Below are positions 7,928 through 64,000 of a DNA stretch of 64,000 bases, in pieces. The stretch is from sequence record OQ870555.1; one strand, written 5' to 3'. Under the pieces are notes generated by a model. That model searched no databases, was not told the DNA's origin, and worked only from the letters and a program-made list of their open reading frames with translations. Source of the stretch: Escherichia phage PECP14. Both the position numbers and the translations under genes were made by a program. Each line of letters opens with the position of its first letter. Within the stretch, counting starts at the first letter, position 1.

Positions 7928-10700
7928 TTCTAGCTCCCAATTCAGCAAGAGCTTCCTCATGCATCTGACGTTCTTCATCTGTCATAAACTTAACTGGAAT
8001 CGGCATACATTCGATCTTACAGTAAGTTCTGTACCAGTCCACAATCTTTTCCGTATCCAGATCTTTACCGATACCCATCATGCCAAGATACATACGAGCA
8101 TATTTTGGGTTAGCGCTCTGACCTGTCTTAAGGAAGAAATCCTTCTTCTTATTCTTAAGAGCTTCGATAAACGGTTTGATTGTTACGTTTGAACACTTTT
8201 TAATATCTTCCCAGAACATCTCGTGCATCTTATGGAAAAATGCAGCTCGATCATTCGGTTTATCCTTGATATACTGTTCAACGTGTTCCACTGTTACATC
8301 TTTAATAGAATCCAGATGATAATAGCGAACCAGAAGTAACTTGGCTTCATAGGCATCTGCATGACGTGGTGCGCAATATTCAGGAGTTGAGTGCAGAATA
8401 GCTTTGATTCGCTCTTCTGTATACTCTTTGCCTGCACCTTCGATAGTCCCCCAGCTTTCACTGAAGATATCAATAGTTGCACCTTGATCGAGAAGATAAT
8501 AACGCAAAGTACTGGTATAGTTTCTAGATTCCAGCTCACGACGGCGTGCGTACAGTTGCTGAGCTAACTCAATCCAACCCTCGTCAATATTATATTGCTC
8601 GGAACCCGCAGAGAATCCACTCGTAGATTTATCAATAAAATAATAAATGTTCTGAGCACCACGGTCGCGCCTGATTGCTTGAAAACGCATGTTTGGCGCT
8701 TGGTTTGAGGTTCTAGTGATTACGAATACGTTATCAAAATAGTTAAAGTCAACACCACTCGTTACAGATGGACTACATAATAAACAATCAATCTGTTGAT
8801 CAATTAGCTCATTAGTTGTATAATCCAGAATACGTCGGATATCTACATCAGACGTAGAGTTTGAGTGAATTTCTTTAACTAACGCACCAGTATTACGACG
8901 TAATGCCATTCCCTTCTCATTCAGTTCATCCGGGCCACAGTCAGATACTAGGATTGATTTCTCCCCCATCTCTAAAGATGTTTGAAGTGCAACCCAAATA
9001 CTGGATTCATCAGGGAATTCATAAGCATGAGCTTTCGCCAGCATTTTACGGTGGTGATTATAAAATGCGACTGGTTTATCAAAATCAATCAAAGAACCAT
9101 AGGCTTCAATCGTTTCTGCACTGATATCACCATCGGATAAGATAACAGTTTTAGCAGTAATAAGGATATCACGAAGAACCTGAATACATTCACGACGGTT
9201 TTTAACAACCGGAGCGAATAACAGATCATTCATTACTGCGTCACATTCATCAATAAAGATCGTATCAATCTGACCCACAAAGCTCTTGAACTTATGGATA
9301 GAGTGAATAGTTGAAGACATACGATCAATGGCACCACGTTTGAAGTTCAGCATATCAACTGACTTATCATACTGACCAGCACCGAATTTCTTCGCGTTAG
9401 AAGATACAAGTGCCCTAGTATTTGTGATTGCAATAAAGTTTCCTGGAAGAACACCTGCATCTAGCCACTTAGTTACTGCTGTAGTTTTACCCGTACCAAG
9501 ACTTGCCTTAACAAATGTTAAATGTCCTTTTGGGGGTACAATGTTAATTTTCAGGTACGGAACTTCTGGTGGAGAATCTGTGTCTAGACGTTTTAATGGT
9601 ACACCTTTTAAGTTTGGTGGAATCTCACGTTTGGAGTTATTTACAAAGGCTTTGAGAGCCTGCTTACGACCGTTATTAAAGTAATCTTGAATATTACGAC
9701 TATTATCTTTAGTCGCAATATACTCAGATAAAGCTGGTTTAATCTCACGTTCTAACCACGTAAAGTCAACACCATCTTCTAACGCTCTGTGATAAAGTTT
9801 TGGGATAATACGCAGGTACACTCCATCCTCAGCTTCTTCTAGTTCGCTGATGGTTTCTTCCACTTTATCAGATGCAGCCTTCTTGCCTTTAATTTGATCA
9901 AGTAAGGAGTAGAACTCTTCTTTAAACTCACCTCTAGTTGTTTCAAAGTCAACTAGGTTATTAGGTAGATTCACCTTCGAACCCTTAACATATACAAGAC
10001 GTGGTTTATTCTCCGCTTTAAACGGATCGACTATACCATCATCAAATAAGGGATCTGCAAAATAGTGAAGCTGAACAGAAGAATAATAAGCTAAGTCAGC
10101 AATATCAAAGCCATACTTTTGCTTACTACTGTCATTGATAGATGTAAATAAGAACTTTAACTGTCCCTGCGTTACCTTGACATTAGATTCTAGCATTAAG
10201 TGCATTCGGATACCTGGTTTTAATCCAGCCGAAGACGATGCATGGGCAATAAACCCTGCATCAAGAGGAAACATATCCTCACTAATACTATTCAACATCT
10301 TAATAATATGACGTGCCATGCCAACAAGATTAAACTTGTCATAGCCACCAGTATCTACAATACCATCCACGTCCATAGCAATAATATGACTAGGATTGGA
10401 TACGTTAAAGTTTCCCCTGGTACGACGCACATTATCTTTTGGAGCTAAACATTTACCACGAATAGCTACAATATGCGGGTCTTTGGTAAGACGACGCATG
10501 ATAGGTAACATTTCAGCAAGGTTTTGCGGGTCAAGTTCTTCAAGTACATCAAATTTGAAGGGCATGGAAGCTGGTTTACCTTCTGGATGCTCTTTAGAGA
10601 ATCGCTTTGCAAAGGTGTAATCTTCCACTTTGATCTCTTTCCAGATGCCAGTGGCTTTATCTCTGGAAAATCCTGCGTGACCTTGTAGGATTGAGAACAC
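7911..10700 (-). CDS. SF2 helicase / replication-origin-binding-type protein
   Basis: Walker A VKASLGTGKTT, Walker B FIDECD; ORF is open to 10823 but GTG at 10698-10700 has an AGGAG 7 nt upstream. Confidence 0.55.
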   Translation of the reverse strand: MFSILQGHAGFSRDKATGIWKEIKVEDYTFAKRFSKEHPEGKPASMPFKFDVLEELDPQNLAEMLPIMRRLTKDPHIVAIRGKCLAPKDNVRRTRGNFNVSNPSHIIAMDVDGIVDTGGYDKFNLVGMARHIIKMLNSISEDMFPLDAGFIAHASSSAGLKPGIRMHLMLESNVKVTQGQLKFLFTSINDSSKQKYGFDIADLAYYSSVQLHYFADPLFDDGIVDPFKAENKPRLVYVKGSKVNLPNNLVDFETTRGEFKEEFYSLLDQIKGKKAASDKVEETISELEEAEDGVYLRIIPKLYHRALEDGVDFTWLEREIKPALSEYIATKDNSRNIQDYFNNGRKQALKAFVNNSKREIPPNLKGVPLKRLDTDSPPEVPYLKINIVPPKGHLTFVKASLGTGKTTAVTKWLDAGVLPGNFIAITNTRALVSSNAKKFGAGQYDKSVDMLNFKRGAIDRMSSTIHSIHKFKSFVGQIDTIFIDECDAVMNDLLFAPVVKNRRECIQVLRDILITAKTVILSDGDISAETIEAYGSLIDFDKPVAFYNHHRKMLAKAHAYEFPDESSIWVALQTSLEMGEKSILVSDCGPDELNEKGMALRRNTGALVKEIHSNSTSDVDIRRILDYTTNELIDQQIDCLLCSPSVTSGVDFNYFDNVFVITRTSNQAPNMRFQAIRRDRGAQNIYYFIDKSTSGFSAGSEQYNIDEGWIELAQQLYARRRELESRNYTSTLRYYLLDQGATIDIFSESWGTIEGAGKEYTEERIKAILHSTPEYCAPRHADAYEAKLLLVRYYHLDSIKDVTVEHVEQYIKDKPNDRAAFFHKMHEMFWEDIKKCSNVTIKPFIEALKNKKKDFFLKTGQSANPKYARMYLGMMGIGKDLDTEKIVDWYRTYCKIECMPIPVKFMTDEERQMHEEALAELGARNDSEE

Positions 10701-11196
10701 AACAATACTCCTATGTTGGTTATTCGGATATCTTTCTTTAGGACTATTCAAAAGAATAGAACAACTATTACTACCATTTACACAAACATTAATCATCATC
10801 AAGCAGTATGAATAAGTTATCATACCTCAGTGCTGCGCTCTCTTAACTCTTATCCAGATCAGAACCTAGGTCATTGGCCGCTAAGCCGATTCTGATTGCC
10901 CTCACTATCCTATTGGTAGGTGGCTACTGGACGTGTCACCATTCGCTGCTCTTTTCGTTCGCACCCCCATATAAAGCTCTGCCTATATAACGAGCTAAAT
11001 ATGCACGGTTTGGATTTACCTTTCCGAATTCAGGGTACGCAGATCACTTAATTGATAATTAACTAATGCAGTATAAACACTAGTAATAGTTAAAACAACC
11101 CTTAATGGGGCAGCCTAACTGTTCCGTATTGCGGATTGTAAACAAGAAAAATTAGCAAAATCAATTTTTACTAATGTCTCTCAATTCAATATAAAT

Positions 11197-59732: not shown

Positions 59733-60057
59733 GGAAGGAAGCGTTGATGGGCAGTCAATTGTCAATCATGCTTTCGATCTTACAGTAGGATGTGCTAATC
59801 CGCTGGTGGCAGGTGAAACAGCAGATATTCTTGGGCTTTTAATGGCAGTTGGCCAGTTAATCGAGATTACCCAAGAAGAGCTAGATAATGATGAAGAAGT
59901 AACTGTTCATGATGTTCTCGGTGCTCTAGATCTGATTGTTAATGCTTATGCCTATAAACGCCGCCACTCAATTGATGAATATCTAGTTTCTCGTGAGATT
60001 ACTGAATCTCTTCTGGAAACTGCTGATATGGCCTTAAACGGCAAGCAACTTCACTAA
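59674..60057 (+). CDS. hypothetical protein
   Basis: internal Met start; overlaps previous ORF by 59 nt; terminator follows. Confidence 0.35.
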   Translation: MTQKKNPVLEQMKQLEKQIEEGSVDGQSIVNHAFDLTVGCANPLVAGETADILGLLMAVGQLIEITQEELDNDEEVTVHDVLGALDLIVNAYAYKRRHSIDEYLVSREITESLLETADMALNGKQLH

Positions 60058-60062
60058 TCCTA

Positions 60063-60092
60063 GAGGCCAGGACTTAATTGTTCTGGCCTTTC
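60063..60092 (+). terminator. hairpin terminator
   Basis: GGCCAG...CTGGCC + TTTCGTG. Confidence 0.45.
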
Positions 60093-60614
60093 GTGTATAC
60101 TATGAGAGATAAAATAAACGAATTACTTTATGAGGAAGCATTACAATTCCCCATAAATAGATTCACTAAATCAGATGGATCTATTAATAGAACTAAGCTC
60201 AAACAACTTCATCCAGACTTCCAGCAAGATGCACTTAATCTTATCTTTATCAGGAGAGCTGTAGAAGCACATGGTAAGTTCTTTGGATATGAAAGAGTTA
60301 AGTATAGAACTATGCAGCAGCAGGTTGAGATCTATTGCCCAGATCACGATGGTTACTTCTTGCAAACTGCACGGTCTCACTTAGAAGGACATGGTTGCCG
60401 ATTATGCGCTCATAAAGTTGTGACACGCTTAACAGAATATGGAGTGTACACCGTACCAGCACCTTTCCACAAATTTGTAGTTGACGGTGAGCATATAATT
60501 TGGTATAATAAAGATCAAAAGTTAAAACAGGAGTTAAAGAAAGATGGAGTACGTAGTCTGGTCAAACCCATTAGCTCTACTCTCCCACAAACTGTTCAAG
60601 ACGACGTGGGGTAG
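60078..60614 (+). CDS. hypothetical Cys/His-containing protein
   Basis: YCPDHDG...HGCRLCAHK. Confidence 0.4.
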   Translation: MFWPFVYTMRDKINELLYEEALQFPINRFTKSDGSINRTKLKQLHPDFQQDALNLIFIRRAVEAHGKFFGYERVKYRTMQQQVEIYCPDHDGYFLQTARSHLEGHGCRLCAHKVVTRLTEYGVYTVPAPFHKFVVDGEHIIWYNKDQKLKQELKKDGVRSLVKPISSTLPQTVQDDVG

Positions 60615-60828
60615 GAATGAGATAACTGTTAATGAGAATCCACTTAATCATCAACATCCTTTAGTCCCAATTCTCTATAAGATTATTATAAATGGTACAG
60701 AATACTTATTAGATGATTTTGGTAAAGAGTTTGTACAAGAAGCCATAGAAGATAATAGTATCTCTATGCGTGAAGTAATTAATAGAGCAGCCAACTTTGA
60801 TAAGAGTTGGATGCTAATCTGGGGTTAA
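60544..60828 (+). CDS. hypothetical protein
   Basis: ORF overlapping previous by 71 nt; start uncertain. Confidence 0.3.
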   Translation: MEYVVWSNPLALLSHKLFKTTWGRNEITVNENPLNHQHPLVPILYKIIINGTEYLLDDFGKEFVQEAIEDNSISMREVINRAANFDKSWMLIWG

Positions 60829-60829
60829 T

Positions 60830-61063
60830 ATGGAAATTATAGCAAGTGTCTTAGTAGTTATGTTATTCATCGTAATACTTGTATCTTTCGTTATTATGCG
60901 TAGAGCTAGAGAACTAGCGGAGGACGTAATGAAGTTACGTGGCGAGGTGGCTACTCTTAAATTACAGCGTGAGTCTCTTAAGTTATTTGTGGCTCAAGGT
61001 AGCCTAGAACATACAGCGGAAGACTTCATCGTATATCTTAAACGTTACATGGGAATCAAATAA
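60830..61063 (+). CDS. small membrane protein
   Basis: ORF. Confidence 0.4.
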   Translation: MEIIASVLVVMLFIVILVSFVIMRRARELAEDVMKLRGEVATLKLQRESLKLFVAQGSLEHTAEDFIVYLKRYMGIK

Positions 61064-61248
61064 TGGAAACACTACTTCTTGTACTACTAGGTGGCTCACT
61101 CTTAACCATTCTAGGCTTGATAATTGTATGCAGTCGCCTCAATGTTAAGAATCTAGAATTAAATAGTGAGAATGAGATTCTTAACCGAGAAATTAAACAA
61201 CATAATATCGCAGCTCGTAAGCTATTAGATAAACTGGAGAATAAATAA
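61063..61248 (+). CDS. small membrane protein
   Basis: ORF. Confidence 0.4.
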   Translation: METLLLVLLGGSLLTILGLIIVCSRLNVKNLELNSENEILNREIKQHNIAARKLLDKLENK

Positions 61249-61859
61249 TGTTTACACAACAAACCATTAAAGTAGTTGCAGATCATGAACTAGACACATG
61301 GGATTACAGCTTTAAAGATCTGACTGCTACAGTACAGTTTAAATCTATGCAACTGTCGTTTTTACACACTGATCTTCAAGGTTGTAAAGAGTTTCAGGCT
61401 AAACTCATGAATGCTCGTGCTATCTTTGGCACAGCTCGCATTCCGGCTGATAATCTGATTAATGCACTGATCGATGCAGGATACAAACTTGTGAAGACTG
61501 AGGTGAACCGCCCAAGTACTCCAGTGACTATTCGGGATCCGTGGCAGTCAGGGCCAATCGCAATGCTGAATAATTCTGATAAAAGATTAATGTCGGATAT
61601 GCACAATGTTCCTTGTGGTGGCGTGGTAAGTAATACGCAATCATATAAGTTTGGGGAAGATTGCAGTCCTTCTGTACAATTGAAACATACTCAAGAAGCT
61701 CTCGAATCTGATATGCGAAGCGTAGCACCTGCGGATGCTGGAGTTTCTAGGAACTCATATACTATTCATCTGAGCACGCCATCTAGTAAGAATGAGAGCT
61801 TAGCTGATGCTGTTATGGAAGCTCTTGTTGATCTGACTAACAGTAAGGGTTTTAATTAA
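61248..61859 (+). CDS. hypothetical protein
   Basis: ORF. Confidence 0.5.
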   Translation: MFTQQTIKVVADHELDTWDYSFKDLTATVQFKSMQLSFLHTDLQGCKEFQAKLMNARAIFGTARIPADNLINALIDAGYKLVKTEVNRPSTPVTIRDPWQSGPIAMLNNSDKRLMSDMHNVPCGGVVSNTQSYKFGEDCSPSVQLKHTQEALESDMRSVAPADAGVSRNSYTIHLSTPSSKNESLADAVMEALVDLTNSKGFN

Positions 61860-62590
61860 TGAAAGATTTGGCTGTAAAGTTTAAGAATATTCTAGCCCTC
61901 GCTAAGGGGGCAGATCATCGCTGTTTCTCTGATCTAACCGCTGAGGAGAAACATGCAGTAATGTTTGTTTGTGAGATGTTCCCTGCTAGATGGGAAGGTG
62001 GTAAGATTAAGTATGATAACAAAGCTGCAAAAGCTGACCTTGCTTACTCTTACGTTGATATGAATAAACTTCTCAAGTCTTTAGACCCAACTGCTAAAGG
62101 CCACATGGGAAACTATATTCACGTTATTATTGATGAACCTCTCCCAGCTTATAGAGAAACATCCGCTAGAGAAGCATTAGAAGCATATCCAGAACAATTG
62201 TACATTCCACCTAAGAAATGTAAGTTCGATCATCTTCCAACATTAGCATTTGAAACTAGCATCACATTTGAAGATATTTATAGAACGATTGGAGCTGTAG
62301 TAGCACGGATTGCAGTGGCACATCATCGTGATATAGAACTTACTACAGCGGAAGATTATATTCTATATGCTATTCATGATGAAAAGGATTCTTTCAAACG
62401 TTTAATGGATGCCCTAGGATTAGGTAGTCTCACTGCGCTTGTGCTTAACCAGGCTCCTAGAACCAAGCGTTATGCAAAAGGATCTATTACTCTCGAAGAA
62501 ACAGGATCTACATCTTCATTCCTTGCTACATATATTTATCTAGCATCTAAAGGAATCTATCTAAAGGCTAGAAAGAATGTCACTATATAA
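61859..62590 (+). CDS. hypothetical protein
   Basis: ORF. Confidence 0.5.
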   Translation: MKDLAVKFKNILALAKGADHRCFSDLTAEEKHAVMFVCEMFPARWEGGKIKYDNKAAKADLAYSYVDMNKLLKSLDPTAKGHMGNYIHVIIDEPLPAYRETSAREALEAYPEQLYIPPKKCKFDHLPTLAFETSITFEDIYRTIGAVVARIAVAHHRDIELTTAEDYILYAIHDEKDSFKRLMDALGLGSLTALVLNQAPRTKRYAKGSITLEETGSTSSFLATYIYLASKGIYLKARKNVTI

Positions 62591-62933
62591 AGTATATATT
62601 CTTGCAAATAGGGATCTGACGAAGATCCCTAAGAGAACAAAGATCGGTATTAGTATGAATCCACATAATAGGATTCAAACACTAAACTTAGATAAGATAG
62701 TTTATCGAGGTTTTGACGATCTATATGTATATGGAATCTATGAAACCCACAATCCTAGAGATCTAGAAGCCGCTGCACATATCTACTTTAAGAAATACCG
62801 CTGTAACTTAAAAGGATTCGAAGGATGCACAGAGTTCTTTGATATTCACCCACAACTTGCAGAACGATTCCTATTAAATACAGGAGCCAAGAAGATTTAC
62901 GAACCCAATATCAATCTCGAAGAGGATGTATAA
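62577..62933 (+). CDS. GIY-YIG-like (T5orf172-type) domain protein
   Basis: YKVYILAN...KIGISMNPHNRIQTLN resembles GIY-YIG/T5orf172 core. Confidence 0.45.
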   Translation: MSLYKVYILANRDLTKIPKRTKIGISMNPHNRIQTLNLDKIVYRGFDDLYVYGIYETHNPRDLEAAAHIYFKKYRCNLKGFEGCTEFFDIHPQLAERFLLNTGAKKIYEPNINLEEDV

Positions 62934-62950
62934 ACGTTAACAAAATCTTC

Positions 62951-62980
62951 TTGACAACTCATTGCGGCACATGTTATAAT
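62951..62980 (+). promoter_or_regulatory. sigma70 consensus-like promoter facing the repeat region
   Basis: TTGACA-18-TATAAT; no ORF downstream within the window. Confidence 0.5.
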
Positions 62981-63256
62981 AATCTCATAGATTAAAAACA
63001 ACTCTTGTTTTGAACTCTAGGGGCGATGATTATTACACTTAGTATTACGTCTATACGTTGCGACAGCACGAGTATAGATCTAATTACTAAGTCTTCCGTA
63101 ATACTCACGCGCCCCACGGGTAAGCTCTCATGAAATGGGGGCTACTTTACTTTTTTATTTATATGAATATATTTAAAGGCAATATTTGTGTTCAAGATGA
63201 TACACTTGTTGCCTCCGCTCTTCCTAGGATGGCACAACACTTTCTAGTAGACTCCT

Positions 63257-63880
63257 AAGTTTCTAGGAAAACTCTTGCATTCTAGGGCAGTTTCTCACCT
63301 ACTATAAATATCCTAGGCCGGTTTCCTATACAGGGCGGTTATAGGGAGGGCGGTTATTTCTAGAAGACATTTTTCCAAAACACATTTCTGGAAATTGCTA
63401 TCGGATTTGCACATTATGTTTCTAGAAATTTATGGTCGGATTTGCACATTGATAGGAGTCTCCGAAGTTTTTAGGAACACTGAAAATAGCAGCATTATTT
63501 CGGGCCGAAGGCCCATGATTGCCTGAGTTTTTAGAGCCACAGGAATTTTCACTTGTCAAGCGATTTTGCCCCATTTTGCTAATAAAATTTCGCAGAATCT
63601 CCACTAATCTCAATTCTAGCCAAAACATCTCACATTATCCCCAAAAACGCAGCAAATCGGTGCTAAAGCACCAACACCGCTGCTCCTCTCGTAGTTCCTC
63701 CCAAAATCTCGTCGAATTCGCACTTCTCCCCAAACTCACACAATCACACACCCTCTCATCGAAGTCACAAAAATCTTGTCGGATTCGCACACCTTAACAC
63801 TTGCCAGATTTGCACATATTCTAGCTAATTCCACAAGAATCGAGCCGCGCTCGTGATTGCTGGAGTTTTTAGGAAAATTC
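63257..63880 (+). repeat. second dispersed repeat family (A/G)AGTTT(T/C)TAG(G/A)
   Basis: copies near 63257, 63463, 63525, 63862; plus GGGCGGTTAT tandem pair at 63335-63358 and GGGCCGAAGGCCC hairpin at 63501-63515. Confidence 0.55.
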
Positions 63881-64000
63881 ATTGTCGGATTCGCACATAT
63901 AAAAAATATTTCCCATCGGATTTGCACACTACCAAAAATTGTCGGATTCGCACATGCACGCTGGCACGTAATCCGTGGGGGCAAATGTCGGATTTGCACA
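63401..64000 (+). repeat. array of 8 direct copies of a ~15-bp motif (T)GTCGGAT(T/C)(T/C)GCACA
   Basis: copies near 63401, 63435, 63777, 63807 (partial), 63883, 63915, 63939, 63986; same orientation, irregular spacing, no ORF. Confidence 0.7.

What the first reader, a model, noticed from the sequence alone, without database searches (positions are those of the whole stretch)
62577..62933. GIY-YIG-like small protein bordering the repeat array
The last ORF before the repeat-rich non-coding region has a GIY-YIG/T5orf172-like core (YKVYILAN...KIGIS.NPHNR). A nuclease-type domain next to a repeat array could be a homing or nicking function acting on that region.
Basis: partly seen in the sequence, partly recalled or inferred. 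Interest (0 to 1): 0.35.

Follow-up and report, generated by a model that had tools for sequence, protein, structure and literature searches.

The report
Small homing-endonuclease gene in T5-like phage
The ORF is a real, already-annotated selfish nuclease gene (a T5orf172/GIY-YIG "homing endonuclease") that comes and goes as a ~400-bp cassette among T5-like phages; it is not tied to the neighbouring repeat array, which every T5-like phage has with or without it.

Summary
The window is a T5-like phage (Demerecviridae; closest to Sds2, S113 and Sepoy). The 118-aa ORF at 62577-62933 (+) is real. It matches Pfam MUG113 (5e-12) and T5orf172 (3.5e-8) above their curated cut-offs, and PHROG 18411 "homing endonuclease" (2e-48). 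Identical proteins are annotated "homing endonuclease" in S113 and SmurfNell, and the DT57C orthologue is named P-TflXVII.

Comparative evidence supports a mobile, free-standing homing-endonuclease gene:
- Its DNA is in 55 phage records, against 445 that match the surrounding 2.2 kb.
- Empty-site twins exist in two different flank backgrounds (EH2/Th1; ESCO30/VEc33).
- It stays 94-99% identical where the upstream gene is only 50-65% identical.
- Decayed copies (JLBYU40) and chimeric copies (Kenya-K36) exist.
- Intact copies are under purifying selection (dN/dS about 0.07).

It is only the nuclease domain. More distant relatives carry N-terminal Zn-finger DNA-binding repeats.

The repeat array (9 copies of GTCGGATTYGCACA, 63400-64000) belongs to the conserved injection-stop region at the inner end of the terminal repeat. 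T5 and BF23 have the array and genome nicks but lack this gene at this locus, so a nicking or array-acting role is not supported.

Verdict: ordinary and already known. No cleavage activity or target site has been shown.

The parts
62577..62933 (+). 118-aa stand-alone T5orf172/MUG113 (GIY-YIG superfamily) nuclease gene; orthologue of 'putative homing endonuclease P-TflXVII'
   Evidence: ORF found. Pfam and PHROG matches. Protein 100% identical to those of S113, Sds2 and SmurfNell. Family-invariant residues K22 G24 R32 E64 H68 G83 E86 F88, with Y7 nearly invariant. AlphaFold2 model with mean pLDDT 84. dN/dS about 0.07.
62566..62969 (.). Approximate extent of the mobile cassette (~404 bp). It holds the last codons of the upstream gene as rewritten by the insert, its own AGG ribosome-binding site, the nuclease ORF, and a replacement -35 element and spacer for the downstream promoter.
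   Evidence: Junction comparison of HEG-plus phages (window, phA11, E22, GEC_N5) with HEG-minus phages (ESCO30, VEc33, EH2, Th1). The island of 94-99% identity is flanked by 50-67% identity in the phA11 group.
62564..62567 (+). AAGG Shine-Dalgarno-like motif, 10-13 nt upstream of the ATG. It is carried by the cassette; empty-site alleles read AAAGCC here.
   Evidence: Sequence. An RBS is annotated at the equivalent place in Sepoy.
61859..62590 (+). Upstream resident early gene (243 aa, PHROG 8993, function unknown). Its last ~8 codons are altered by the insertion. It overlaps the nuclease ORF by 14 nt, so the two are probably translationally coupled.
   Evidence: dN/dS 0.067.
62951..62980 (+). 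Perfect extended sigma-70 promoter (TTGACA-18-TGtTATAAT) immediately downstream. Its -35 element and spacer are part of the cassette. The -10 element and everything downstream are shared with empty-site phages.
62988..63160 (+). Neighbouring candidate structured RNA (small 5' hairpin, ~96-nt long hairpin, terminator-like hairpin plus T-run). It is not part of the nuclease gene. It separates the gene from the repeat array.
   Evidence: MFE -58 kcal/mol, z -8.0. No Rfam match. Present in both HEG-plus and HEG-minus phages, with four different hairpin interiors that each fold (z -3.8 to -6.5). T5 has an analogue of unrelated sequence.
63400..64000 (+). The repeat array: 9 same-strand copies of GTCGGATTYGCACA (up to 2 mismatches), interspersed with other short repeats. 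It belongs to the conserved injection-stop region at the inner end of the direct terminal repeat, whose boundary maps to about 63534-63553. Context only; not functionally linked to the gene.
   Evidence: 11 matches in the window against 0.39 expected. Boundary mapping. T5 annotation. Davison preprint.

Best explanation
The ORF is a free-standing homing-endonuclease gene (HEG) of the T5orf172 branch of the GIY-YIG nuclease superfamily. It sits in a T5-like phage as a ~400-bp cassette, inserted between the last gene of an early operon and the strong promoter that precedes the terminal repeat.

Shown here:
- It is a T5orf172/MUG113-domain protein that keeps all residues invariant in its family.
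- It is present or absent at exactly the same site in otherwise collinear phages.
- It has moved between diverged flank backgrounds.
- Intact copies are under purifying selection, while a few copies are frameshifted or recombined.
- It has no promoter of its own. It carries its own ribosome-binding site and overlaps the upstream gene, so it should be expressed with the early operon.

Inferred mechanism: during mixed infection with a phage that lacks the cassette, the nuclease cuts the empty allele near the junction. Candidate target sequences are CTCAAAGCCAA at the end of the upstream gene and CTTGACGTT at the -35 element. Both are altered in cassette-bearing alleles. Recombinational repair from the HEG-plus genome then copies the cassette and some flanking sequence into the cut genome.

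Because the protein is only the catalytic domain, specificity must come from elsewhere. Possible sources are the domain's own insertions (residues 11-20 and 39-46), the C-terminal tail, oligomerisation, or a partner protein. That step is not established.
For: Domain identity:
- Pfam MUG113 E 5.4e-12 and T5orf172 E 3.5e-8, both above the curated cut-offs.
- PHROG 18411 'homing endonuclease' E 1.9e-48.
- Invariant K22, G24, R32, E64, H68, G83, E86, F88 and nearly invariant Y7 across 19 family members.
- AlphaFold2 model with mean pLDDT 84.
- Five top PDB matches are all the GIY-YIG nuclease Slx1 (probability 0.77-0.94 but E 0.06-0.3). Predicted viral structures of T5orf172 proteins match at E 4e-10 to 1e-4.

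Mobility:
- The ORF's DNA is in 55 records, against 445 for the 2.2-kb neighbourhood.
- Empty sites exist in two backgrounds. In EH2/Th1 the upstream gene abuts the promoter. ESCO30/VEc33 have an upstream gene 98% identical to that of HEG-plus phA11.
- In phA11, E22, VAH1, GEC_N5 and JLBYU40 the ORF is 94-99% identical to the window. The upstream gene is 50-65% identical and the sequence after 63000 is 67% identical.

Life-cycle signs:
- JLBYU40 has a frameshifted copy annotated as two CDS.
- Kenya-K36 has a chimera. Its first ~66 residues are the small nuclease, joined at an LDAAH/LEAAAH microhomology to the tail of another allele of the upstream gene. A 242-aa T5orf172 endonuclease follows it.
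- The same locus holds diverged T5orf172 genes in the PRF-SP13 group (53-56% identity), Klebsiella T5-like phages (40%, 129 aa) and the SP3 group (37%, 242 aa). The locus is therefore a hotspot.

Selection: 13 of 13 sampled full-length copies are intact. Median dN/dS is 0.066, equal to the resident upstream gene at 0.067.

Literature: T5orf172 genes are treated as HEGs, are abundant in T5-like phages, sit at boundaries of genetic exchange, and in one case have nuclease activity that depends on the conserved glutamate (PMC10448857).
Against: - No cleavage, target site or super-Mendelian inheritance has been shown for this protein, here or in the literature searched (one search found no paper naming P-TflXVII).
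- The protein lacks the DNA-binding module that most T5orf172 HEGs have. 87% carry CapR-like Zn fingers according to PMC10448857, and the more distant relatives carry them too.
- The PDB fold match is weak (E 0.06).
- Within the window-type flank allele the gene is fixed: all records at least 90% identical in the upstream gene carry it. Its synonymous divergence there is similar to that of the neighbouring gene. That fits long vertical co-inheritance as well as ongoing homing.
- Purifying selection as strong as on a resident gene would also fit a domesticated function.
Confidence: 0.72

Rival explanations
1. It is a domesticated or accessory stand-alone nuclease. The gene arrived as a homing-endonuclease gene but is now kept for another job, such as excluding co-infecting relatives, attacking host or satellite DNA, or DNA processing. 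It may no longer home.
For: There is no DNA-binding domain: 118 aa, with the nuclease domain spanning residues 6-97. dN/dS of 0.07 equals that of a resident gene. The gene is fixed in one flank lineage. T5orf172 domains are also found in candidate defence proteins (PADLOC PDC-S57, E 4e-7) and in the anti-satellite nuclease of phage ICP1 (papers listed).
Against: The gene is absent from most T5-like phages, including T5 and BF23. It is polymorphic within the phA11-type lineage, with near-identical empty sites. It has been transferred as a discrete cassette. Decayed copies exist. This pattern is what a selfish element shows, not a needed function.
Confidence: 0.17
2. The nuclease nicks or cuts within the adjacent repeat array or injection-stop region. 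It might, for example, make the T5-type single-strand interruptions or process the terminal repeat.
For: The evidence is proximity only. The ORF ends 467 nt from the first repeat copy and about 600 nt from the terminal-repeat boundary. T5 has a major nick annotated inside the iss region.
Against: T5 and BF23 have nicked genomes and the terminal-repeat/iss architecture. Their best matches to this protein are 31.5% and 40.4% identical and lie at other loci. T5 has a different cassette at this locus. 445 records match the 2.2-kb query that includes the array, against 55 with the ORF. The array is conserved across T5-like phages regardless of this gene. The insertion junctions are not in the array.
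Confidence: 0.03
3. It is an inactive remnant of a longer homing endonuclease that lost its DNA-binding domain and is drifting towards loss.
For: More distant relatives are about 220-240 aa with Zn-finger repeats. The 242-aa SP3-type enzyme occupies the same locus. Some copies are broken.
Against: 13 of 13 sampled full-length copies are intact, with dN/dS of 0.07, and every family-invariant residue is kept. Homologues of 118-129 aa with the same stand-alone architecture exist at 40-73% identity, so the short form is old and maintained.
Confidence: 0.06

Closest known systems
'Putative homing endonuclease P-TflXVII' of coliphages DT57C, DT571/2 and T5_ev219. The same gene is annotated 'homing endonuclease', 'GIY-YIG nuclease' or 'T5orf172 domain protein' in S113, SmurfNell, Sepoy, GEC_vB_N5 and VAH1.
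   Same: It is the same gene at the same locus, with 94-100% amino-acid identity.
   Different: Nothing substantive differs. Those names are annotations, not experiments.
T5orf172-family homing endonucleases of vibriophage ICP1 and other phages (Barth, Dunham and Seed 2023, PMC10448857)
   Same: They share the nuclease domain and the conserved Glu. They are free-standing genes found sporadically at boundaries of genetic exchange, and the family is reported as enriched in T5-like phages.
   Different: 87% of those proteins carry one or more CapR/DUF723-type Zn-finger DNA-binding domains. This protein has none. Sequence identity is low.
The 242-aa T5orf172 endonuclease of Salmonella phage SP3, also in SE11 and Kenya-K36, at the same locus
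   Same: It occupies the same position, as the last gene before the promoter near the terminal repeat. It has a T5orf172 domain 37% identical to this protein and a strong structural match (SE11 protein, E 4e-10, TM 0.85).
   Different: It has a 128-residue N-terminal domain, 60% identical to the N-terminus of the resident T5.023-like protein (window 60078-60614).
Classical GIY-YIG homing endonucleases (I-TevI and the SegA-G proteins of T4); basis: general knowledge
   Same: They belong to the same superfamily and have the same free-standing or mobile lifestyle in lytic phages. They spread by double-strand break, repair and co-conversion of flanking sequence.
   Different: Those enzymes are about 200-250 aa, with a C-terminal DNA-binding domain joined by a linker. 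No sequence-level match was found here: PDB sequence searches were negative.
Slx1 structure-specific endonuclease (PDB 4xlg, 7cq2)
   Same: It is the best solved-structure match to the predicted fold, through its GIY-YIG domain.
   Different: The match is weak (E 0.06, TM 0.41). Slx1 is a eukaryotic repair nuclease that needs Slx4 and a RING domain. It is not a relative in any functional sense.

Membership tests
T5orf172 / MUG113 families (GIY-YIG nuclease superfamily) | Profile-HMM match above the curated threshold | tested here: met
   MUG113 scores 46.6 bits against a cut-off of 22.3. T5orf172 scores 34.3 bits against a cut-off of 20, covering residues 6-97. PHROG 18411 gives E 1.9e-48.
T5orf172 / MUG113 families (GIY-YIG nuclease superfamily) | Conserved motif residues: the Tyr of the first strand ('GIY'), the 'KIG' counterpart of 'YIG', the Arg after it, and the catalytic Glu in the 'TEFF' motif | tested here: met
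   Y7, K22-I-G24, R32, E64, H68, G83, E86 and F88 are invariant or nearly invariant in the 19-sequence family alignment, and all are present in this protein. Equating E86 with the catalytic Glu of GIY-YIG enzymes rests on the literature and general knowledge. It was not tested by a structural superposition here.
T5orf172 / MUG113 families (GIY-YIG nuclease superfamily) | GIY-YIG-type alpha/beta fold | tested here: inconclusive
   The model is confident (pLDDT 84, pTM 0.78), with strands at 5-11, 21-26 and 49-56 and helices at 29-35, 60-70 and 92-101. The five best PDB matches are all Slx1, but at E 0.06-0.3 and TM about 0.4. Matches to predicted viral T5orf172 proteins are strong, but those are models, not solved structures.
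T5orf172 / MUG113 families (GIY-YIG nuclease superfamily) | Metal-dependent nuclease activity | not testable with these tools
   This needs purified protein.
Free-standing homing-endonuclease gene | Sporadic presence among close relatives, with precise empty sites at the same position | tested here: met
   55 records carry the ORF's DNA, against 445 for the neighbourhood. Empty sites are seen in EH2/Th1 and ESCO30/VEc33, with junctions resolved to a few bases.
Free-standing homing-endonuclease gene | The gene is more conserved than its flanks and has transferred between diverged backgrounds | tested here: met
   There is an island of 94-99% identity within flanks of 50-67% identity in five phages.
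Free-standing homing-endonuclease gene | A DNA-recognition module giving site specificity | tested here: not met
   No domain other than the nuclease domain was found. The protein is 118 aa, whereas relatives of about 220 aa have N-terminal Zn-finger repeats.
Free-standing homing-endonuclease gene | Cleavage of the HEG-less allele and super-Mendelian inheritance in mixed infection | not testable with these tools
   No experiment on this protein was found.
Nuclease serving the T5 repeat array, injection-stop signal or genome nicks | Co-occurrence with the array and with nicked genomes | tested here: not met
   T5 and BF23 have the terminal-repeat/iss architecture and nicked genomes. Their best matches to this protein are 31.5% and 40.4% identical at other loci, and T5 has a different cassette at this locus. 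About nine tenths of the records matching the 2.2-kb query that includes the array lack the ORF.

The most novel reading that the evidence does not exclude
The 118-aa protein may be a functional homing endonuclease that gets its specificity without any fused DNA-binding domain. One route is that it is one of the smallest autonomous site-specific nucleases. The other is that it is the catalytic half of a two-part enzyme that borrows a separately encoded DNA-binding protein.

A candidate partner is the resident T5.023-like Zn-finger protein at window 60078-60614. Its N-terminal domain is found fused to a T5orf172 nuclease in the SP3-type enzyme at this very locus. The target would then lie in the promoter of the adjacent conserved structured RNA. 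That would link homing to the swapping of that RNA's hairpin interior.
Probability: 0.1. Interest if true: 0.5.

Novelty: already known. Interest (0 to 1): 0.18.

Why it matters
It matters little beyond correct annotation. It is one more example of T5orf172 homing-endonuclease genes marking mosaic boundaries in T5-like phages. It shows that the junction between the early operon and the terminal repeat is a hotspot, occupied by at least four diverged T5orf172 genes.

It is a clean natural test case, because HEG-plus and HEG-minus twins such as phA11 and ESCO30 are in hand. That allows a direct test of whether a bare T5orf172 nuclease domain can home. The answer bears on how these enzymes gain and swap DNA-binding modules.

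The result also removes a tempting but wrong link between this nuclease and the T5 injection-stop repeats and nicks.

Tried and rejected
- Sequence searches of the PDB with the protein and with the family profile found nothing relevant.
- NCBIfam gave no match.
- Rfam gave no match for 60000-64000.
- Word-indexed homologue searches returned only a narrow clade. The exhaustive representative search gave 20 proteins, mostly about 220 aa with Zn fingers.
- IMG/VR added only four loci, all already known phages.
- The literature search for 'TflXVII' found no paper. Searches for a T5 nicking enzyme and for a T5-like small RNA were unproductive.
- I considered that the upstream 243-aa protein might be a HEG-specific partner. 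I rejected this because HEG-minus phages have it too.
- I considered that the T5.023-like protein (60078-60614) co-occurs with the small nuclease as a split enzyme. It is present in T5, which lacks the nuclease, so co-occurrence gives no support. The idea is not excluded.
- T5.018, which occupies the locus in T5, shows only marginal similarity to the 243-aa protein (E 0.015) and none to the nuclease.
- MAFFT first placed the empty-site gap wrongly. The junctions were re-read by eye against a second empty-site background.
- RNAalifold on the structured element is unreliable in the variable interior, because the variants are not alignable. I therefore folded each variant separately.

Full report
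**What the window is.** The 2.2 kb around the finding matches 445 phage records. The best are 94-97% identical: Phage vB_SabS_Sds2, Salmonella phages S113 and Sepoy, and Escherichia phage SmurfNell. These are T5-like phages (Demerecviridae, Markadamsvirinae). In the window's orientation an early operon runs on the + strand towards the inner end of the direct terminal repeat. Mapping the annotated repeat ends of Sepoy, T5 and Kenya-K15 onto the window puts that boundary at about 63534-63553.

**The observation.** The ORF at 62577-62933 (+) exists and encodes 118 aa.
- Its ATG is the first in the frame, which opens at 62565.
- An AAGG motif lies 10-13 nt upstream.
- The ORF overlaps the stop of the upstream 243-aa gene by 14 nt.
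- It matches Pfam MUG113 (E 5.4e-12, 46.6 bits against a cut-off of 22.3) and T5orf172 (E 3.5e-8, 34.3 bits against 20) over residues 6-97.
- It matches PHROG 18411, labelled 'homing endonuclease', at E 1.9e-48.

**Domain anatomy.** I aligned the protein with 18 relatives found by exhaustive HMMER search.
- The invariant positions are K22, G24, R32, E64, H68, G83, E86 and F88. Y7 and F81 are nearly invariant.
- These correspond to the first-strand Tyr, the KIG counterpart of 'YIG', the following Arg, and the Glu of the C-terminal TEFF motif.
- The literature treats that Glu as the catalytic residue of T5orf172 nucleases (PMC10448857).
- An AlphaFold2 model built from a 14-sequence alignment is confident (mean pLDDT 84, pTM 0.78).
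- Its five best PDB matches are all the GIY-YIG nuclease Slx1, but only weakly (E 0.06-0.3, TM about 0.4).
- Against predicted viral structures it matches T5orf172 proteins strongly (E 4e-10 to 1e-4).
- Sequence searches of the PDB find nothing.

The protein is essentially the nuclease domain alone. Most of the more distant relatives are about 180-290 aa (two are larger), with the T5orf172 domain at the C-terminus preceded by CxxC/H-type Zn-finger repeats. Barth et al. report such repeats in 87% of T5orf172 homing endonucleases. Compared with those relatives, this protein has short insertions (residues 11-20 and 39-46) and a 20-residue tail.

**Distribution.** The ORF's DNA is found in only 55 phage records, 44 of them near full length. 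The 2.2-kb neighbourhood matches 445 records, and the 257 nt just downstream match 282. At the protein level 48 records have an orthologue at 80% identity or more.

Phage T5 has no counterpart at the locus. Window 61750-63190 has no blastn match to T5, which carries T5.018 there instead. T5's best protein-level hit is 31.5% identical, at 105.8 kb. BF23's best is 40% identical, at 37.2 kb.

**Empty sites and cassette limits.** Empty sites exist in two flank backgrounds.
- In EH2, Th1 and SE3, the upstream gene (about 73% identical to the window's) runs straight into the promoter region.
- In ESCO30, VEc33, SaI_NFG_5581, UTK0010 and BSP22A, the upstream gene is 93-99% identical to that of HEG-plus phA11, and the nuclease gene is absent.

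Reading the junctions gives the following:
- HEG-minus: ...AAACTCAA|AGCCAAAGTAAAAGAATAA|ACGTTA|CTTGACGTTCATCCATCTG|CATGTTATAAT
- HEG-plus: ...AAACTCAA|GGCTAGAAAGAATG...[ORF]...GTATAA|ACGTTA|ACAAAATCTTCTTGACAACTCATTGCGGCA|CATGTTATAAT

The mobile unit is therefore about 404 bp, window about 62566-62969.
- It rewrites the last ~8 codons of the upstream gene.
- It brings its own AGG ribosome-binding site.
- It replaces the -35 element and spacer of the downstream promoter.

**Transfer between backgrounds.** I computed identity to the window in 100-nt bins. In phA11, E22, VAH1, GEC_N5 and JLBYU40 the upstream gene is 50-65% identical. The ORF is 94-99% identical. Identity falls to 67% again after 63000. 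The cassette has therefore moved between diverged genomes.

**Selection and decay.** All 13 sampled full-length copies are intact. Median pairwise dN/dS is 0.066, and most replacements fall in the C-terminal tail. The resident upstream gene gives 0.067 over the same genomes.

Broken copies also exist.
- JLBYU40 has a 1-nt insertion and is annotated as two CDS.
- Kenya-K36 and K42 carry a chimera. The first ~66 residues of the nuclease are joined at an LEAAAH/LDAAH microhomology to the last ~68 residues of the SP3-type allele of the upstream gene. A 242-aa SP3-type T5orf172 endonuclease follows.

The same locus holds 123-aa homologues in the PRF-SP13 group (53-56% identity), a 129-aa homologue in Klebsiella T5-like phages (40%), and the 242-aa SP3-type enzyme (37%). 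The site is a hotspot for T5orf172 genes.

**Mechanism.** The pattern fits a free-standing homing-endonuclease gene. It shows precise presence or absence, an island of high identity, a hotspot with competing occupants, occasional decay, and purifying selection on intact copies.

I infer expression from the early operon by translational coupling. I infer cleavage of the empty allele in mixed infection, followed by recombinational repair that copies the cassette. Two short sequences are shared by both empty-site backgrounds and altered in cassette-bearing alleles: CTCAAAGCCAA and CTTGACGTT. They are the obvious candidate recognition or cleavage sites, but this is inference only.

How a bare 118-aa catalytic domain finds a site is unexplained. 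Within the window-type flank lineage the gene is fixed, with synonymous divergence similar to its neighbour. Long vertical inheritance, or a domesticated role, therefore cannot be excluded.

GTCGGATTYGCACA (up to 2 mismatches) occurs 9 times on the + strand between 63400 and 64000. The whole window has 11 matches against 0.39 expected.

This stretch lines up with the inner end of T5's terminal repeat. That is where T5 has its injection-stop region (iss annotated at 9140-10149). Davison describes this as 'Repeat Region 3', with nine DRD direct repeats, overrunning the terminal repeat by about 270 bp and conserved across T5-like phages (preprint 10.1101/866236). Equating the window's motif with the DRD repeats is my inference from the copy number and position.

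The array is separated from the ORF by 467 nt. T5 and BF23 have nicked genomes and the terminal-repeat/iss architecture but lack this gene at this locus. The gene is missing from about nine tenths of the records that match the 2.2-kb query including the array. A nicking or array-directed function is therefore not supported.

**Comparison with known things and verdict.** The protein is 100% identical to proteins annotated 'homing endonuclease' in RefSeq records of S113 and SmurfNell. It is 94-97% identical to 'putative homing endonuclease P-TflXVII' of DT57C, DT571/2 and T5_ev219. T5orf172 homing-endonuclease genes, and their enrichment in T5-like phages, are described in PMC10448857.

The finding is real but already known. 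What this analysis adds is detail: the cassette limits, the two empty-site backgrounds, the hotspot, the Kenya-K36 chimera, and the dN/dS estimate. No experiment on this particular protein was found.

**Side observation.** Immediately downstream lies a perfect extended sigma-70 promoter (62951-62980). After it comes a ~170-nt stretch that folds into a small 5' hairpin, a ~96-nt long hairpin and a terminator-like hairpin (-58 kcal/mol, z -8.0). It has no Rfam match.
- All 21 T5-like loci examined have it, with or without the nuclease gene.
- The promoter, the 5' hairpin and the base of the long hairpin are conserved.
- There are four unrelated hairpin interiors, each of which still folds (z -3.8 to -6.5).
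- T5 has the same architecture with unrelated sequence (z -6.8), at T5 10639-10844, outside Davison's Repeat Region 3.

This looks like an undescribed small structured RNA, or a DNA-level hairpin, of T5-like phages. It may be more interesting than the nuclease gene.

Noticed in passing
window 62951-63160 (+); also L004 1538-1726, L012 1896-2083, L017 1882-2115, L003 3380-3140 (-): There is a candidate small structured RNA between the nuclease gene and the repeat array. It has a perfect TTGACA-18-TGtTATAAT promoter, a small 5' hairpin with two compensatory changes, a ~96-nt long hairpin and a terminator-like hairpin (MFE -58 kcal/mol, z -8). The long hairpin has a conserved base (GGGGCGATGATTATTACA...CGTAATACTCACGCGCCCC) and an interior that exists in at least four unrelated versions that all fold. 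There is no Rfam match. It is present in HEG-plus and HEG-minus phages, and T5 has the same architecture with unrelated sequence. The small ORFs overlapping it are not conserved: the 42-aa ORF at 63130 is only 8 codons long in Sepoy.
   Followed up: partly
window 60078-60614 (+): This 178-aa ORF is the homologue of T5.023 (about 71% identical to T5). Its residues 9-111 are 60% identical (E 2e-45) to the N-terminal, probably Zn-binding (C..H...H.GC..C), domain of the 242-aa SP3-type T5orf172 endonuclease, which sits at the nuclease locus in other phages. A resident gene and a homing endonuclease have therefore exchanged a domain. It has no Pfam match.
   Followed up: partly
L018 (Salmonella phage Kenya-K36) 1774-2929: The annotated CDS K36_014 is a chimera. 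It has the N-terminal ~66 residues of the small nuclease, fused at an LDAAH microhomology to the C-terminal ~68 residues of the SP3-type upstream gene. The 242-aa SP3-type T5orf172 endonuclease follows it. This looks like one homing cassette having invaded and truncated another.
   Followed up: yes
L006 (Escherichia phage JLBYU40) 1443-1800: The orthologue has a 1-nt insertion (358 nt against 357 nt) and is annotated as two CDS ('putative homing endonuclease' plus 'putative GIY-YIG nuclease family protein'). It is either a decayed copy or a sequencing error.
   Followed up: partly
window 61600-61900: There is a mosaic patch in the C-terminal third of the 203-aa gene (PHROG 5271) and its junction with the next gene. 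Identity to the otherwise near-identical phage Sepoy drops to 60-69% here, against 93-100% on both sides. This is a second recombination boundary, about 700 nt upstream of the nuclease gene.
   Followed up: no
window 63400-64000, with a boundary at about 63534: Two of the nine GTCGGATTYGCACA copies (63400 and 63435) lie outside the mapped terminal-repeat boundary and seven lie inside. This fits Davison's remark that the repeat region overruns the terminal repeat. T5's annotated major nick (T5 9748/9749) would map just beyond the window's end. One further copy with a single mismatch lies inside a gene, at 61592-61605.
   Followed up: partly
window 62577-62930 against PADLOC: There is a weak match to candidate defence-system protein models PDC-S57 (E 4e-7 and 8e-5). 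It probably reflects only the shared T5orf172 domain.
   Followed up: no
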